Virus record (IMG/VR): IMGVR_UViG_3300011831_000014
From: a virus
Lineage: Duplodnaviria; Heunggongvirae; Uroviricota; Caudoviricetes
Length of the DNA stretch: 4,891 bases
Direction: 5' to 3' (one strand)
Shown: in pieces, positions 1,030 through 4,891 of the stretch
How the letters are laid out: each line of letters begins with the position of its first letter
How positions within the stretch are numbered: the stretch's first letter is position 1
Notes under the pieces: generated by a model
Databases searched by the model: none
The model's input: only the letters and a program-made list of their open reading frames with translations
Told to the model about the DNA's origin: nothing
Translations under genes and position numbers: made by a program

Positions 1030-1727
1030 TGCAGGACATACAACAGGAAACGCTGAATGAATGCATTCGTGCGGAGCAGTCGGCCAGCGTGGTGCTCTGG
1101 GAAATCGACCTGACCGAGGTAGGCGGGGATCGCTACTTTTTCTGTAATGAGCAGAACGAAAAAGGTGAGTCTGTCACCTGGCAGAGTCGGCAGTATCAGG
1201 CCTATCCCATTCAGGGGAGTGGATTTGAGATGAACGGCAAGGGCAGTGCTGCCCGTCCGACACTGACGGTCTCTAACCTGCACGGCATGGTCACCGGGAT
1301 GGCGGAAGACCTGCAGAGTCTGGTCGGCGGAACGGTGGTCCGGCGTAAGGTTTACGCCCGCTTTCTGGATGCGGTGAACTTCGTCAACGGAAACAGCGAA
1401 GCCGATCCGGAGCAGGAGGTGATCAGCCGCTGGCGCATCGAGCAGTGCAGCGAACTGAGCGCGGTCAGTGCCTCTTTTGTACTGTCCACGCCGACGGAAA
1501 CGGACGGTGCCGTTTTTCCGGGACGTATCATGCTGGCCAACACCTGCACCTGGACCTATCGCGGCGATGAGTGCGGTTATAGCGGTCCGGCGGTCGCGGA
1601 TGAATATGACCAGCCAACGTCCGATATCACGAAGGATAAATGTAGCAAATGCCTGAGCGGTTGTAAGTTCCGCAATAACGTCGGCAACTTTGGCGGCTTC
1701 CTTTCCATTAACAAACTTTCGCAGTAA
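1029..1727 (+). CDS. L: Minor tail protein L (tail-tip protein with C-terminal cysteine-rich Fe-S cluster domain)
   Basis: 232-aa ORF; translation [12 protein letters not shown]...NTCTWTYRGDECGYSG...KDKCSKCLSGCKF...FLSINKLSQ is near-identical to lambda gpL as recalled. ATG overlaps the M stop. Confidence 0.95.
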   Translation: MQDIQQETLNECIRAEQSASVVLWEIDLTEVGGDRYFFCNEQNEKGESVTWQSRQYQAYPIQGSGFEMNGKGSAARPTLTVSNLHGMVTGMAEDLQSLVGGTVVRRKVYARFLDAVNFVNGNSEADPEQEVISRWRIEQCSELSAVSASFVLSTPTETDGAVFPGRIMLANTCTWTYRGDECGYSGPAVADEYDQPTSDITKDKCSKCLSGCKFRNNVGNFGGFLSINKLSQ

Positions 1728-1732
1728 ATCCC

Positions 1733-2476
1733 ATGACACAGACAGAATCAGCGATTCTGGCGCACGCCCGGCGATGTGCGCCAGCGGAGTCGTGCGGCTT
1801 CGTGGTGAGAACGCCGGAGGAGGAAAGATATTTTCCCTGCGTGAATATCTCCGGTGAGCCGGAGGAGTATTTCCGGATGTCGCCGGAGGACTGGCTGAGT
1901 GCAGAAATGCAGGGAGAGATTGTGGCGCTGGTCCACAGCCACCCCGGTGGTCTGCCCTGGCTGAGTGAGGCCGACCGGCGGCTGCAGGTGCAGAGTGATT
2001 TGCCGTGGTGGCTGGTCTGCCGGGGGACGATTCATAAGTTCCGCTGTGTGCCGCATCTCACCGGGCGGCGCTTTGAGCACGGGGTAACGGACTGTTACAC
2101 GCTGTTCCGGGACGCTTACCATCTGGCGGGAATTGAGATGCCGGATTTTCATCGCGGGGATGACTGGTGGCGTAACGGTCAGAATCTCTATCTGGATAAT
2201 CTGGAGGCCACAGGGCTGTATCAGGTGCCGTTGTCATCAGCACAACCGGGCGATGTGCTGCTGTGCTGTTTTGGTTCATCGGTGCCGAATCATGCCGCCA
2301 TTTACTGTGGTGACGGCGAGCTGCTGCACCATATTCCTGAACAACTGAGCAAACGAGAGAGGTACACCGACAAATGGCAGCGACGCACACACTCCCTCTG
2401 GCGTCACCGGGCATGGCACGCATCTGCCTTTACGGGGATTTACAACGATTTGGCCGCCGCATCGACCTTCGAGTGA
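1733..2476 (+). CDS. K: Tail-tip assembly protein K (N-terminal MPN/JAB metalloprotease-like domain plus C-terminal NlpC/P60 cysteine peptidase domain)
   Basis: 247-aa ORF starting 5 nt after the L stop; near-identical to lambda gpK as recalled. JAMM motif H-x-H-x7-S-x2-D (HSHPGGLPWLSEAD) at nt 1934-1975; NlpC/P60-like Cys (DCYTLF, codon 2093-2095) and His (PNHAAIY, codon 2291-2293). Internal ATG at 1877 with upstream GGAGGAG would give a 199-aa form. Confidence 0.9.
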   Translation: MTQTESAILAHARRCAPAESCGFVVRTPEEERYFPCVNISGEPEEYFRMSPEDWLSAEMQGEIVALVHSHPGGLPWLSEADRRLQVQSDLPWWLVCRGTIHKFRCVPHLTGRRFEHGVTDCYTLFRDAYHLAGIEMPDFHRGDDWWRNGQNLYLDNLEATGLYQVPLSSAQPGDVLLCCFGSSVPNHAAIYCGDGELLHHIPEQLSKRERYTDKWQRRTHSLWRHRAWHASAFTGIYNDLAAASTFE

Positions 2477-3015
2477 AAACGGGGTCCGAAGCCATCCGGG
2501 CGCTGGCCATGCAGATCCCGGCGTTTCGTCAGAAACTGAGCGACGGCTGGTACCAGGTACGCATTGCCGGGCGTGATGCAGGTGAAACCGAATTGTCTGC
2601 CCGTCTTAATGAGCCGCTGGAAAATGGTGCCGTGATCCATATCGTGCCGCGTCTGGCAGGAGCCAAAAGTGGCGGTGTGTTTCAGGCTGTGCTGGGGGCG
2701 GCTGTTATGGCGGTTGCTATATGGATGCCGGGGGTAGGAATTATGGCGAGTAATCTGCTGTTTTCTCTCGGTGCCAGTATGACGCTTGGCGGTGTTGCAC
2801 AGATGCTGGCCCCTAAACCCAAAACCCCCCGCACACAGACAACGGATAACGGCAAACAGAACACCTATTTTTCTTCTCTGGATAACATGGTTGCCCAGGG
2901 CAATGTTCTGCCGGTTCTGTACGGTGAAATGCGCGTGGGGTCACGCGTGGTTTCTCAGGAGATCAGCACGGCAGACGAAGGGGATGGTGGTCAGGTTGTG
3001 GTGATTGGTCGCTGA
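2374..3015 (+). CDS. I: Tail-tip assembly protein I (N-terminal ubiquitin-like beta-grasp domain, Gly/Ala-rich hydrophobic segment, conserved C-terminus)
   Basis: 213-aa ORF; translation MAATHTLPLASPGMARICLYGDLQRFGRRIDLRV...NGKQNTYFSSLDNMVAQGNVLPVLYGEMRVGSRVVSQEISTADEGDGGQVVVIGR matches lambda gpI as recalled. Start overlaps the 3' end of K by 103 nt in a different frame, as in lambda. Confidence 0.93.
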   Translation: MAATHTLPLASPGMARICLYGDLQRFGRRIDLRVKTGSEAIRALAMQIPAFRQKLSDGWYQVRIAGRDAGETELSARLNEPLENGAVIHIVPRLAGAKSGGVFQAVLGAAVMAVAIWMPGVGIMASNLLFSLGASMTLGGVAQMLAPKPKTPRTQTTDNGKQNTYFSSLDNMVAQGNVLPVLYGEMRVGSRVVSQEISTADEGDGGQVVVIGR

Positions 3016-3030
3016 TGAAAAACGTTTATG

Positions 3031-3060
3031 TGAAACCGCCTCAGGGCGGTTTTGTCGTTT
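3031..3060 (+). terminator. Stem-loop (AAACCGCC-TCAG-GGCGGTTT) followed by a T-rich tract in the I-J spacer; possible weak intrinsic terminator, attenuator or mRNA-stability hairpin
   Basis: Perfect 8-bp inverted repeat 3033-3040 / 3045-3052 with 4-nt loop, GC-rich core CCGCC/GGCGG, followed by TTTTGTCGTTT. Located in the only sizeable non-coding gap in the window. Confidence 0.3.
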
Positions 3061-3062
3061 CT

Positions 3063-3066
3063 GGAG
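3063..3066 (+). promoter_or_regulatory. Shine-Dalgarno sequence for J
   Basis: GGAG 8 nt upstream of the J ATG at 3075; a second purine-rich GAGGA lies immediately adjacent to the ATG. Confidence 0.5.
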
Positions 3067-3074
3067 CGTGAGGA

Positions 3075-4891
3075 ATGGGTAAAGGCAGCAGTAAGGGGCA
3101 TACCCCGCGCGAAGCGAAGGACAACCTGAAATCATCCCAGATGCTGAGCGTGATAGACGCCATCAGCGAAGGGCCGGTTGAAGGTCCGGTGGACGGATTA
3201 AAAAGTGTGCTGCTGAACAGTACGCCAGTGCTGGACAGTGAGGGGAATACCAATATCTCCGGTGTCACGGTGGTTTTCCGGGCAGGTGAGCAGGAGCAGA
3301 CACCGCCGGAGGGATTTGAATCCTCCGGCTCCGAGACGGTGCTGGGTACGGAAGTGAAGTACGACACGCCGATTACCCGGACCATCACGTCGGCAAACAT
3401 CGACCGTCTGCGCTTTACCTTCGGTGTGCAGGCACTGGTGGAAACCACCTCAAAGGGGGACAGGAATCCGTCGGAAGTCCGCCTGCTGGTTCAGATACAG
3501 CGTAATGGTGGCTGGGTGACGGAAAAAGACATCACCATTAAAGGCAAATCCACCTCACAGTATCTAGCATCGGTGGTGGTGGGTAACCTGCCGCCGCGCC
3601 CGTTCAATATCCGGATGCGCAGGATGACGCCGGACAGCACCACAGACCAGCTGCAGAACAAAACGCTCTGGTCGTCATACACCGAAATCATCGATGTGAA
3701 ACAGTGCTACCCGAACACGGCACTGGTCGGCGTACAGGTGGATTCGGAGCAGTTCGGCAGCCAGCAGGTGAGCCGTAATTATCATCTGCGCGGGCGCATT
3801 CTGCAGGTGCCGTCGAACTATAACCCGCAGACGCGGCAATACAGCGGTATCTGGGACGGAACGTTTAAGCCAGCATACAGCAACAACATGGCCTGGTGTC
3901 TGTGGGATATGCTGACCCATCCGCGCTACGGCATGGGGAAACGTCTTGGTGCGGCGGATGTGGACAAATGGGCGCTGTATGTCATCGGCCAGTACTGCGA
4001 CCAGTCAGTGCCGGACGGCTTTGGCGGCACGGAGCCGCGCATCACCTGTAATGCGTACCTGACCACACAGCGCAAGGCGTGGGATGTGCTCAGTGATTTC
4101 TGCTCGGCGATGCGCTGTATGCCGGTATGGAACGGGCAGACGCTGACGTTCGTGCAGGACCGACCATCAGATAAGGTGTGGACCTATAACCGCAGTAATG
4201 TGGTGATGCCGGATGATGGTGCGCCGTTCCGCTACAGCTTCAGCGCCCTGAAGGACCGCCATAATGCCGTTGAGGTGAACTGGATTGACCCGAACAACGG
4301 CTGGGAGACGGCGACAGAGCTTGTTGAAGATACGCAGGCCATTGCCCGTTACGGTCGTAATGTCACGAAGATGGATGCCTTTGGCTGTACCAGCCGGGGG
4401 CAGGCACACCGCGCCGGGCTGTGGCTGATTAAAACAGAACTGCTGGAAACGCAGACCGTGGACTTCAGCGTGGGTGCCGAAGGGCTTCGCCATGTACCGG
4501 GCGATGTCATTGAAATCTGCGATGATGACTATGCCGGTATCAGCACCGGTGGTCGCGTGCTGGCGGTGAACAGCCAGACCCAGACGCTGACGCTCGACCG
4601 TGAAATCACGCTGCCATCCTCCGGTACCACGCTGATAAGCCTGGTTGACGGAAGTGGTAATCCGGTCAGCGTGGAGGTTCAGTCCGTCACCGACGGCGTG
4701 AAGGTGAAAGTGAGCCGTGTTCCTGACGGCGTTGCTGAATACAGCGTATGGGGGCTGAAGCTGCCGACGTTGCGCCAGCGCCTGTTCCGCTGCGTGAGTA
4801 TCCGTGAGAACGACGACGGCACGTATGCCATCACCGCCGTGCAGCATGTACCGGAAAAAGAAGCCATCGTGGATAACGGGGCGCACTTTGA
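3075..4891 (+). CDS. J: Tail tip / central tail fibre host-specificity protein J, N-terminal ~605 codons (3'-truncated by window end)
   Basis: ATG at 3075 opens a frame with no stop through the window end, which is why it is absent from the ORF track. Translation MGKGSSKGHTPREAKDNLKS...VLLNSTPVLDSEGNTNISGVTVVFRAGEQEQTPPEGFESSGSETVLGTEVKYDTPITRTI... matches lambda gpJ N-terminus as recalled. Confidence 0.95.
   Translation, partial: MGKGSSKGHTPREAKDNLKSSQMLSVIDAISEGPVEGPVDGLKSVLLNSTPVLDSEGNTNISGVTVVFRAGEQEQTPPEGFESSGSETVLGTEVKYDTPITRTITSANIDRLRFTFGVQALVETTSKGDRNPSEVRLLVQIQRNGGWVTEKDITIKGKSTSQYLASVVVGNLPPRPFNIRMRRMTPDSTTDQLQNKTLWSSYTEIIDVKQCYPNTALVGVQVDSEQFGSQQVSRNYHLRGRILQVPSNYNPQTRQYSGIWDGTFKPAYSNNMAWCLWDMLTHPRYGMGKRLGAADVDKWALYVIGQYCDQSVPDGFGGTEPRITCNAYLTTQRKAWDVLSDFCSAMRCMPVWNGQTLTFVQDRPSDKVWTYNRSNVVMPDDGAPFRYSFSALKDRHNAVEVNWIDPNNGWETATELVEDTQAIARYGRNVTKMDAFGCTSRGQAHRAGLWLIKTELLETQTVDFSVGAEGLRHVPGDVIEICDDDYAGISTGGRVLAVNSQTQTLTLDREITLPSSGTTLISLVDGSGNPVSVEVQSVTDGVKVKVSRVPDGVAEYSVWGLKLPTLRQRLFRCVSIRENDDGTYAITAVQHVPEKEAIVDNGAHF

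What the first reader, a model, noticed from the sequence alone, without database searches (positions are those of the whole stretch)
1934..2300. gpK carries two peptidase-like domains: JAMM/MPN motif and NlpC/P60 Cys-His
The sequence directly shows HSHPGGLPWLSEAD, matching the JAMM H-x-H-x7-S-x2-D metal-binding motif (nt 1934-1975), followed by an NlpC/P60-like catalytic Cys in DCYTLF (2093-2095) and His in PNHAAIY (2291-2293). A JAB deubiquitinase-like domain fused to a papain-like peptidase in a tail assembly protein is an established but still mechanistically unresolved observation for lambda gpK; the substrate is not definitively known.
Basis: partly seen in the sequence, partly recalled or inferred. 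Interest (0 to 1): 0.45.

Follow-up and report, generated by a model that had tools for sequence, protein, structure and literature searches.

The report
Lambda gpK: two-peptidase tail assembly protein
The stretch encodes a near-copy of phage lambda's tail-tip assembly protein K, which really does join a JAMM-type metallopeptidase to an NlpC/P60 cysteine peptidase; this has been known for about twenty years, so the finding is correct but ordinary.

Summary
ORF 1733-2476 (+, 247 aa) is 97% identical to re-sequenced lambda gpK and lies in the lambda order H-M-L-K-I-J. HSHPGGLPWLSEAD is at aa 68-81 (nt 1934-1975), C121 at 2093-2095 and H187 at 2291-2293.

Both domains pass Pfam's curated cut-offs: Prok-JAB at aa 3-104 and NlpC/P60 at aa 111-224. 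Both are also recovered by an AlphaFold2 model searched against the PDB. In 92 homologues of 31-58% identity, the residues E19, H68, H70, S/T78, D81, C121, H187 and H199 are kept in 91-92 sequences each.

The architecture was published between 2003 and 2006. Iyer et al. 2006 predicted that the JAB domain cuts the ubiquitin-like N-terminal domain off the next gene's product, gpI. A 2025 conference report says the Davidson lab has shown this. Only the substrate of the NlpC/P60 half remains open.

One useful side result: the lambda reference sequence (J02459/NC_001416) lacks one G just upstream of its annotated K start. Its 199-aa gpK therefore lacks the first 48 JAB residues, including the catalytic Glu. 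Independent lambda records and 161 of 177 IMG/VR loci carry the 247-aa gene seen here.

Novelty: already known. Interest: low.

The parts
1733..2476 (+). Gene K: tail tip assembly protein K, 247 aa. Its ATG lies 5 nt after the stop of gene L.
   Evidence: ORF list. It is 97% identical to re-sequenced lambda gpK. Synteny is with lambda H-M-L-K-I-J. The 247-aa form is the usual database call and is found in 161 of 177 IMG/VR loci.
1739..2044 (+). JAB/MPN+ (JAMM) metallopeptidase domain, aa 3-104.
   Evidence: Pfam PF14464, E 2.9e-14, profile positions 3-112 of 114. Sequence match to the PDB JAB protein 2kks. The family profile matches 2kks, 2kcq and PfJAMM1 5lda/5ld9. Foldseek's top hit is PfJAMM1 bound to SAMP2, followed by Rpn11, CSN5 and AMSH.
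1787..1789 (+). E19, the JAMM general-base glutamate (in AESCGF). It lies upstream of the start annotated in the lambda reference.
   Evidence: Aligned with the E of EACG in 2kks and EVCG in PfJAMM1. Kept in 91 of 92 diverse homologues.
1934..1975 (+). JAMM core motif HSHPGGLPWLSEAD. H68, H70 and D81 are the presumed zinc ligands, and S78 is the conserved serine.
   Evidence: for the coordinates. H68, H70 and D81 are kept in 92 of 92 homologues, and S78 is S or T in 92 of 92. They align with the HSH...PS..D of solved JAMM proteins.
2063..2404 (+). NlpC/P60 (MEROPS C40, papain-like) cysteine peptidase domain, aa 111-224.
   Evidence: Pfam PF00877, E 1.6e-12, profile positions 1-105 of 105. Foldseek hits to MepS, C. 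difficile Acd33800 and 7v6s/t/u. The family profile matches Spr/MepS, CwlO and LytE.
2093..2095 (+). C121, the presumed nucleophile of the NlpC/P60 domain. It lies at the start of the predicted helix 121-131.
   Evidence: Kept in 91 of 92 homologues, and the preceding D120 in 92 of 92.
2291..2293 (+). H187, the presumed catalytic histidine (in PNHAAIY).
   Evidence: Kept in 91 of 92 homologues. Aligned with the histidine of RHVGIY in Spr.
2327..2329 (+). H199, the presumed third triad residue (in LLHH).
   Evidence: Kept in 91 of 92 homologues, with Q in the other one. Aligned with the histidine of FVHA in Spr.
2405..2473 (+). C-terminal tail of K, aa 225-247, beyond the Pfam domain. It is conserved among lambda-like homologues and overlaps the start of gene I in another frame.
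   Evidence: Invariant W228, F233, T234, G235, I236, N238 and D239 in A1. Modelled as a helix at low confidence. Distant homologues mostly stop aligning near aa 226.
2374..3015 (+). Gene I: tail tip protein I, the proposed substrate of the JAB domain. It is 213 aa from ATG 2374, or 200 aa if translation starts at M14 (ATG 2413).
   Evidence: Pfam Lambda_tail_I PF06805 at aa 14-97, E 1e-23. The family profile matches lambda gpI chains in PDB entries 8iyk and 9e7m. Many database homologues are called at 200 aa.
2413..2676 (+). Ubiquitin-like (MoaD/ThiS/SAMP-type beta-grasp) domain of gpI, aa 14 to about 101. It ends in PRLAGAKSGG, and the conserved diglycine G100-G101 (nt 2671-2676) is the likeliest cleavage point.
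   Evidence: The secondary structure of the model fits a beta-grasp, and order ends near residue 98. The top Foldseek hits are SAMP1, MoaD-related protein, Urm1 and MoaD, but the E-values are only about 1e-3 from a low-confidence model. G96, A97, K98 and G101 are invariant in A4. GG followed by [AV]F..VLG is kept in a 32%-identical homologue. The cleavage site itself is an inference.

Best explanation
Gene K encodes a non-structural maturation enzyme of the siphophage tail tip. Its N-terminal JAMM/MPN+ domain is a zinc peptidase of the desampylase/deubiquitinase type. This domain recognises the MoaD/SAMP-like ubiquitin-like domain at the N-terminus of gpI, the product of the next gene. It cuts after the terminal glycines of that domain, most likely G100-G101 in PRLAGAKSGG.

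The cut releases the C-terminal part of gpI, which stays in the tip as the plug that holds the C-terminus of the tape-measure protein. The cut acts as an assembly checkpoint, and gpK then leaves, so it is absent from virions.

The fused NlpC/P60 domain is also an active Cys-His-His peptidase. It acts in the same assembly step on a substrate not yet identified, such as a second cut in gpI or another tip or tape-measure protein.

Shown here: both domains, their intact and conserved active sites, the neighbouring ubiquitin-like gene, and conservation of this module in distant phages. Taken from the literature: the cleavage of gpI and the absence of gpK from virions. Inferred: the exact cleavage site and any role of the NlpC/P60 domain.
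For: Both Pfam domains are above their curated cut-offs.

The AlphaFold2 model (mean pLDDT 76.9, with the JAB half mostly around 90) has PfJAMM1 in complex with the ubiquitin-like SAMP2 as its best PDB match. Rpn11, CSN5 and AMSH follow for the JAB half, and MepS and other NlpC/P60 enzymes for the second half. A weak, below-cut-off NCBIfam hit to 'desampylase' points the same way.

The catalytic residues of both sites are kept in 91-92 of 92 homologues at 31-58% identity. They align with those of solved JAMM and Spr/MepS proteins.

The downstream gene I carries PF06805. Its N-terminal domain models as a beta-grasp whose best PDB matches are SAMP1, MoaD and Urm1. That domain ends in a conserved diglycine.

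A distant viral contig keeps the order TMP-M-L-K(JAB+NlpC/P60)-I.

Literature. [quoted passage not shown] A conference report states that gpK cleaves it after gpI joins the tip (PMC12908700). gpK was not detected in virions by mass spectrometry (PMC10721106). Only gpI residues 134-222 are resolved in the tip (PMC12617516).

In F-pyocin, the gpK homologue PA0639 is absent from particles and its deletion gives tip-less tubes. The N-terminus of the gpI homologue is present in stalled tips and absent from mature particles (bioRxiv 10.64898/2026.02.24.707460).
Against: The experimental claim for cleavage rests on a conference summary. I found no primary paper in the searched library.

The gpI model is of low confidence (mean pLDDT 46.6), and its fold matches have E-values of about 1e-3 only.

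No docking or complex prediction could be examined, so the contact between the JAB site and the gpI tail is not shown here.

The cryo-EM papers do not say whether the N-terminus of gpI is cleaved or merely disordered. The F-pyocin authors do not attribute the cleavage to PA0639, and they report that host proteases can remove the N-terminus when the protein is expressed alone.

Nothing here identifies the substrate of the NlpC/P60 domain. Its closest structural relatives are peptidoglycan endopeptidases.
Confidence: 0.75

Rival explanations
1. The NlpC/P60 domain, and so gpK, is a cell-wall hydrolase that helps the tail cross the peptidoglycan at infection, as a virion-associated lysin.
For: The closest solved relatives of the second domain are murein endopeptidases: MepS/Spr, CwlO, LytE and Acd33800. 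There is a weak hit to NCBIfam 'putative phage cell wall peptidase, NlpC/P60 family', at 22.7 bits against a cut-off of 81.9. The triad is intact and conserved.
Against: gpK was not detected in lambda virions by mass spectrometry (PMC10721106) and is not resolved in any tail structure (PMC12617516). Its F-pyocin homologue is absent from mature particles. A protein that does not travel with the particle cannot act at entry. No signal peptide or cell-wall-binding module is evident in the 247 residues, where Pfam finds only the two peptidase domains.
Confidence: 0.07
2. The JAB domain is primarily a counter-defence enzyme. It strips ubiquitin-like proteins that bacterial Bil-type systems conjugate to the central tail fibre gpJ.
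For: Hor et al. speculate exactly this for DUB domains in siphophage tail assembly proteins (bioRxiv 10.1101/2023.09.04.556158). gpK acts on the J-containing initiator complex, and its fold is that of enzymes that remove ubiquitin-like modifiers.
Against: [quoted passage not shown] The JAB gene is always next to a phage-encoded ubiquitin-like domain of its own. That gives it a built-in substrate and explains its conservation without any defence system. The two roles are not mutually exclusive.
Confidence: 0.08
3. One or both peptidase domains are catalytically dead scaffolds, and gpK works only as a chaperone for the tip complex.
For: Inactive MPN- and NlpC/P60-like domains exist in other families (established knowledge). 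The lambda reference annotation implies a 199-aa protein without the JAMM glutamate.
Against: All catalytic residues of both sites are present here and kept in 91-92 of 92 homologues down to 31% identity. Such conservation is not expected of dead domains. The 199-aa form comes from a one-base gap in the reference sequence.
Confidence: 0.05
4. The motifs are chance matches in an unrelated protein.
For: Short motifs such as H-x-H or a single Cys and His can arise by chance.
Against: Full-length profile matches to both families are far above their curated cut-offs. Structural matches exist for both halves. The motif is expected 0.05 times per shuffled window.
Confidence: 0.01

Closest known systems
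Bacteriophage lambda tail tip assembly protein K (gpK; UniProt P03729 by my recollection, RefSeq NP_040598)
   Same: It is 97% identical over 246 residues to gpK of re-sequenced lambda. It has the same position between L and I, the same overlap with I, and the same two domains.
   Different: Eight substitutions, none at a catalytic residue. The reference lambda records annotate only residues 49-247 (199 aa) because of a missing G upstream. This window has the intact 247-aa frame.
Archaeal JAMM desampylases (Pyrococcus furiosus JAMM1, PDB 5ld9 and 5lda with SAMP2; Haloferax HvJAMM1) and the bacterial JAB proteins 2kks and 2kcq
   Same: A minimal single-domain MPN+ fold with the E...HSH...S..D zinc site. 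They are the best sequence and structure matches. Their partner is a MoaD/SAMP-type ubiquitin-like protein ending in glycines.
   Different: About 21-26% identity. Here the ubiquitin-like domain is the N-terminal part of a structural protein and is cut off from a linear fusion, rather than removed from a lysine conjugate. There are no E1 or E2 genes nearby. The JAB domain is fused to a second peptidase.
NlpC/P60 murein endopeptidases (E. coli MepS/Spr, B. subtilis CwlO and LytE)
   Same: A papain-like fold with a Cys-His-His triad. The catalytic histidines align.
   Different: About 15-21% identity in the structure alignments. gpK has no signal peptide, lipobox or wall-binding domain. It acts in the cytoplasm during tail assembly and is not in virions, so peptidoglycan is an unlikely substrate.
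Pseudomonas aeruginosa F-pyocin PA0639 / PA0640 pair
   Same: These are homologues of gpK and gpI in a tail-like bacteriocin. PA0639 is an assembly factor absent from particles, and the N-terminus of PA0640 is removed on maturation.
   Different: A tailocin rather than a phage. The authors did not assign the cleavage to PA0639. I did not compare the sequences directly.
Rpn11 / CSN5 / AMSH (eukaryotic JAMM isopeptidases)
   Same: The same fold and metal site. The lambda K motif is listed alongside theirs in PMC300881.
   Different: These are larger proteins that work in multi-subunit complexes on isopeptide bonds. Their homology to gpK is distant.

Membership tests
JAMM/MPN+ metallopeptidases (Pfam Prok-JAB PF14464) | Profile match over the whole domain, above the curated cut-off. 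| tested here: met
   53.3 bits against a cut-off of 25, aa 3-104, profile positions 3-112 of 114.
JAMM/MPN+ metallopeptidases (Pfam Prok-JAB PF14464) | Complete E-x(n)-H-S/T-H-x7-S-x2-D motif, aligned with that of solved members. | tested here: met
   E19, H68, S69, H70, S78 and D81 are present. They align with 2kks, 2kcq and PfJAMM1. They are kept in 91-92 of 92 homologues.
JAMM/MPN+ metallopeptidases (Pfam Prok-JAB PF14464) | MPN fold. | tested here: met
   The AlphaFold2 model's first 100 residues score mostly between 85 and 94 pLDDT per block of ten (lowest 70), and the top Foldseek hits are 5lda, 5ld9, 2kks, Rpn11 and CSN5, all with probability 1.00. This is a predicted model, not a solved structure.
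JAMM/MPN+ metallopeptidases (Pfam Prok-JAB PF14464) | Zinc binding and peptidase or isopeptidase activity. | not testable with these tools
   Only a conference summary reports cleavage of gpI by gpK (PMC12908700).
NlpC/P60 (Pfam PF00877, MEROPS C40) | Profile match over the whole domain, above the curated cut-off. | tested here: met
   47.7 bits against a cut-off of 23, aa 111-224, profile positions 1-105 of 105.
NlpC/P60 (Pfam PF00877, MEROPS C40) | Catalytic Cys at a helix start, plus a His and a third polar residue (His, Asn or Gln). | tested here: met
   C121 is at the start of predicted helix 121-131, and H187 and H199 lie in strands. H187 and H199 align with the two Spr histidines. Each is kept in 91 of 92 homologues. 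The alignment of the Cys with a solved member rests on the Pfam profile and the fold match, not on a printed residue alignment.
NlpC/P60 (Pfam PF00877, MEROPS C40) | Papain-like alpha+beta fold. | tested here: met
   Foldseek hits to MepS (8xup, 8xud), Acd33800 (9ubf) and 7v6s/t/u, with E-values from 1e-4 to 1e-3. This half of the model has a pLDDT of only 52-90.
NlpC/P60 (Pfam PF00877, MEROPS C40) | Hydrolysis of a gamma-D-Glu-mDAP or similar peptidoglycan bond, the activity typical of the family. | not testable with these tools
Its cytoplasmic, non-virion location argues for a different substrate.
Lambda gpK orthologues (tail tip assembly protein K) | Near-identity to lambda gpK and the gene order H-M-L-K-I-J. 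| tested here: met
   97% identity. Pfam families of the neighbours. Lambda annotation. 94-98% DNA identity to lambdoid phages.
Lambda gpK orthologues (tail tip assembly protein K) | Essential for tail tip assembly and absent from the virion. | not testable with these tools
   Literature on lambda and F-pyocin only.
JAB + ubiquitin-like 'TAPK/TAPI' module of Iyer et al. 2006 | An adjacent gene encoding an N-terminal MoaD/ThiS-like beta-grasp domain that ends in conserved glycine, followed by a linker and a C-terminal domain. | tested here: met
   PF06805 at aa 14-97 of gpI. Invariant G96 and G101. The GG is kept in a 32%-identical homologue. The beta-grasp fold is supported only weakly: the model has pLDDT of about 60 in that domain, and the top hits SAMP1, MoaD and Urm1 have E-values of about 1e-3.

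The most novel reading that the evidence does not exclude
The NlpC/P60 half of gpK is not a wall hydrolase. It is the missing protease of another tail maturation step. [quoted passage not shown] Another is a second cut in gpI that removes its hydrophobic linker. Alternatively, the JAB half doubles as a counter-defence enzyme that removes Bil-type ubiquitin-like tags from gpJ. None of these is excluded by the evidence, and none is supported beyond the conserved, apparently active site and the timing of gpK action.
Probability: 0.15. Interest if true: 0.55.

Novelty: already known. Interest (0 to 1): 0.2.

Why it matters
The finding adds nothing new to biology. This is a standard lambdoid tail gene, and its two-peptidase architecture and ubiquitin-like partner were described between 2003 and 2006.

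Its value is as a well-preserved example of a prokaryotic JAB and ubiquitin-like pair used as an assembly checkpoint. It also points to the one piece that is still open: what the conserved, apparently active NlpC/P60 domain cuts.

A practical by-product concerns the lambda reference record, which is still used as the template for annotation and read mapping. A one-base gap makes it truncate gpK by 48 residues. As a result, the reference protein (199 aa, 'C40 family peptidase') hides half of the JAB domain and its catalytic glutamate.

Tried and rejected
**Programmed -1 frameshift making a K-I fusion.** Gene I lies in the -1 frame of K, with a 103-nt overlap, and databases contain K-I fusion proteins. 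I rejected this idea. The seven fusions examined are clusters of only one or two sequences, they join at different positions, and several carry other frame errors. They are independent indels or assembly errors.

**Using a natural K-I fusion (P0035) as a pseudo-complex for AlphaFold2.** I did not run this. The tool returns no coordinates or PAE, so docking of the gpI tail into the JAB site could not have been judged.

**Co-occurrence test of JAB and the ubiquitin-like domain across diverse loci.**
- A 12-sequence alignment returned only loci 95-98% identical to the window.
- One distant protein found nothing.
- Another gave two loci, one of which was analysed.
So the test rests on a single distant example plus Iyer et al. 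2006.

**gpI structure.** The model is of low confidence. Its fold matches are suggestive only.

**Literature.** The search for a primary paper on gpK cleaving gpI, or on the error in the lambda reference, found nothing beyond the conference report. Anantharaman & Aravind 2003 is not held.

**RNA families and promoter or terminator scans.** Nothing relevant was found.

Full report
**What is in the window.** The 4891-base window is a lambdoid tail-tip module, all on the + strand:
- the C-terminus of the tape-measure protein H, to 698 (Pfam Tape_meas_lam_C);
- M, 691-1029 (Phage_min_tail);
- L, 1029-1727 (Phage_tail_L);
- K, 1733-2476;
- I, 2374-3015 (Lambda_tail_I);
- the start of J.

The DNA is 94-98% identical to many E. 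coli lambdoid phages and prophages. The order matches lambda's annotated H-M-L-K-I-J. No Rfam family and no promoter-like site lie around the finding. The antisense ORFs of 120-134 aa across 1748-2423 are unsupported mechanical ORFs.

**Check of the observation.**
- HSHPGGLPWLSEAD is aa 68-81, nt 1934-1975;
- C121 is nt 2093-2095;
- H187 is nt 2291-2293.

The JAMM core pattern occurs once in the six frames, against 0.05 expected in shuffles. More to the point, the whole protein matches two Pfam families. Prok-JAB matches aa 3-104 at 53.3 bits (cut-off 25). NLPC_P60 matches aa 111-224 at 47.7 bits (cut-off 23). Each match covers essentially the full profile.

By sequence, the protein matches the solved JAB protein 2kks. 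E19, HSH and S..D align with the corresponding residues of that chain. A profile built from 92 homologues matches 2kks, 2kcq, PfJAMM1 (5ld9, 5lda) and AfJAMM on the JAB side. On the other side it matches Spr/MepS, CwlO and LytE. There the histidines of NHAAIY and LLHH align with the two catalytic histidines of Spr.

**Structure.** An AlphaFold2 model of the 247-aa protein has a mean pLDDT of 76.9. The JAB half is mostly near 90 and the NlpC/P60 half is 52-90. The domain linker (107-111) and the last 11 residues are the weakest parts. C121 sits at the start of a helix and H187 and H199 sit in strands, as in papain-like enzymes.

Against the PDB, the best hit is Pyrococcus JAMM1 bound to the ubiquitin-like SAMP2. 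It is followed by 2kks, Rpn11, CSN5 and AMSH, interleaved with MepS, Acd33800 and other NlpC/P60 peptidases. No solved structure of gpK itself is in the PDB copy.

**Conservation.** An exhaustive search of 1.84 billion representative proteins found 2759 relatives at E<=0.001. In 92 full-length homologues at 31-58% identity:
- H68, H70 and D81 are invariant;
- S78 is S or T in all;
- E19 is kept in 91;
- C121, H187 and H199 are each kept in 91 (the exception at 199 is Gln);
- D120 is invariant.

Both active sites are therefore under strong selection. That argues against dead scaffold domains.

**Gene model, and a flaw in the lambda reference.** The lambda RefSeq record annotates K as 14276..14875, giving 199 aa. 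That corresponds to M49 of the ORF here and leaves a 148-nt gap after L. Aligning the two sequences shows that the reference reads GGAGGC-TATTTCC where this window has GGAGGAGTATTTCC.

Four other lambda-derived records all read GGAGGCGTATTTCC: PV340536, LC730321 (48,503 bp), KT232076, and the DE3 prophage of BL21(DE3). All four give an uninterrupted 247-aa frame from the ATG five bases after the L stop. PV340536 annotates K that way.

The reference version of this 31-mer has no exact match in 2.9 million IMG/VR contigs. The version with the G has at least 120. Of 177 IMG/VR loci carrying the K motif, 161 have a 247-aa ORF and one has a 199-aa ORF. Residues 1-48 are conserved in distant homologues and include E19, G22 and N38.

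The 199-aa reference protein is therefore most likely the product of a one-base omission in the 1982 sequence, in a G+C-rich run. I cannot exclude a real mutation in that stock. Two further records (OR974322, OR474059) share the reference reading, though they may be reference-guided. One consequence is visible in a 2020 review that analysed the 199-aa protein: it reported only one peptidase domain, at residues 52-182 (PMC7291167).

**The partner gene.** gpI has the Lambda_tail_I domain at aa 14-97. Its AlphaFold2 model is poor, with a mean pLDDT of 46.6 and about 60-66 in the first 100 residues. It does show a beta-grasp-like succession of strands and helices, and order ends at about residue 98. 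Its best PDB matches are all ubiquitin-like proteins: SAMP1, a MoaD-related protein, Urm1, MoaD and ubiquitin. Their E-values are only about 1e-3. I treat this as consistent with the sequence-based assignment of Iyer et al. 2006, not as independent proof.

The domain ends in PRLAGAKSGG, and G96, A97, K98 and G101 are invariant among close homologues. In a distant viral contig, L205, the order TMP-M-L-K-I is kept. Its K-like protein again has Prok-JAB plus NLPC_P60. Its I-like protein is 32% identical and keeps VP..GA..GG followed by [AV]F..VLG. The diglycine G100-G101 is therefore my best guess for the scissile site. This is an inference.

**What the literature adds.**
- The JAMM motif of lambda K was tabulated in 2003-2004, with 'function unknown' (PMC300881).
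- Iyer, Burroughs and Aravind (2006) described the JAB+NlpC/P60 architecture of 'TAPK' and the MoaD/ThiS-like domain of 'TAPI'. They predicted that the JAB domain releases the ubiquitin-like domain at its C-terminal glycine, and that the NlpC/P60 domain might also process it (PMC1779556).
- gpK was not found in virions by mass spectrometry (PMC10721106).
- Only gpI residues 134-222 are seen in the tip, bound to the C-terminus of gpH (PMC12617516).
- In F-pyocin, the gpK homologue is an assembly factor absent from particles. The N-terminus of the gpI homologue is present in stalled tips and missing from mature particles.

I found no primary paper on the cleavage.

**Mechanism.** The best-supported reading is that gpK is a transient maturation enzyme. 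[quoted passage not shown]

The NlpC/P60 site (C121, H187, H199) is intact and conserved, so it is probably active, but its substrate is unknown. A role as a wall-degrading virion enzyme is unlikely, because gpK is not in the particle. An anti-Bil deubiquitinase role has been suggested. That would be an addition to the assembly role, not an alternative, because K is needed for assembly in hosts without Bil.

**Verdict.** The novelty class is 'already known'. Interest is low. The main by-product worth passing on is the truncated K gene in the lambda reference record.

Noticed in passing
window 1733-1879; lambda NC_001416 14133-14276 (locus L001 2134-2277): The lambda reference sequence (J02459/NC_001416) lacks one G, reading GGAGGC-TATTTCC about 12 nt upstream of its annotated K start. 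This splits the K frame, so K is annotated as 199 aa without the first 48 JAB residues. Four other lambda-derived records have the G and a 247-aa K. So do at least 120 IMG/VR contigs, and 161 of 177 IMG/VR loci carry the 247-aa ORF.
   Followed up: yes
window 2374-2476: The start of gene I is ambiguous, with three candidates. ATG 2374 gives 213 aa and a 103-nt overlap with K. ATG 2413 (M14) gives 200 aa; it is a very common database call (PGAP-named clusters of up to about 2,500 sequences), the Pfam domain begins there, and a distant homologue starts at the equivalent position. GTG 2473 overlaps the K stop as GTGA and is the equivalent of the start used in record PV340536, but it would remove the first strand of the ubiquitin-like domain.
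   Followed up: partly
window 2374-2476 (K/I overlap); proteins P0013, P0035, P0066, P0077, P0093, P0099, P0119: Gene I lies in the -1 frame of K, and databases hold K-I fusion proteins (and L-K fusions). The seven K-I fusions examined are clusters of one or two sequences with different junctions, so they look like indel or assembly errors, not programmed frameshifting.
   Followed up: yes
window 2405-2473: The last 23 residues of K (HRAWHASAFTGIYNDLAAASTFE) lie outside the NlpC/P60 profile yet are nearly invariant among lambda-like homologues, although this DNA also encodes the N-terminus of gpI in another frame. Most distant homologues stop aligning near residue 226. The tail could be a docking peptide; its function is unknown.
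   Followed up: no
window 2680-2790 (gpI aa ~103-139): The hydrophobic, glycine-rich linker of gpI is 10 residues shorter here than in lambda (213 against 223 aa). It is the most variable part of the protein among close homologues, with several length variants.
   Followed up: no
L205 (IMGVR_UViG_3300009838_000043) 1951-4277: A distant metagenomic viral contig keeps the TMP-M-L-K-I order. It has a JAB+NlpC/P60 K-like gene and an I-like gene that Pfam's Lambda_tail_I model does not detect, although the protein aligns along its whole length with gpI at 32% identity.
   Followed up: partly
window 1530-1724 (gpL C-terminus): gpL carries the cysteine-rich C-terminal segment (CTWTYRGDECGY...CSKCLSGC) that the literature links to a 4Fe-4S cluster in lambda gpL. 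It lies immediately upstream of K, whose ATG follows the L stop by 5 nt with no obvious Shine-Dalgarno sequence, which suggests translational coupling.
   Followed up: no
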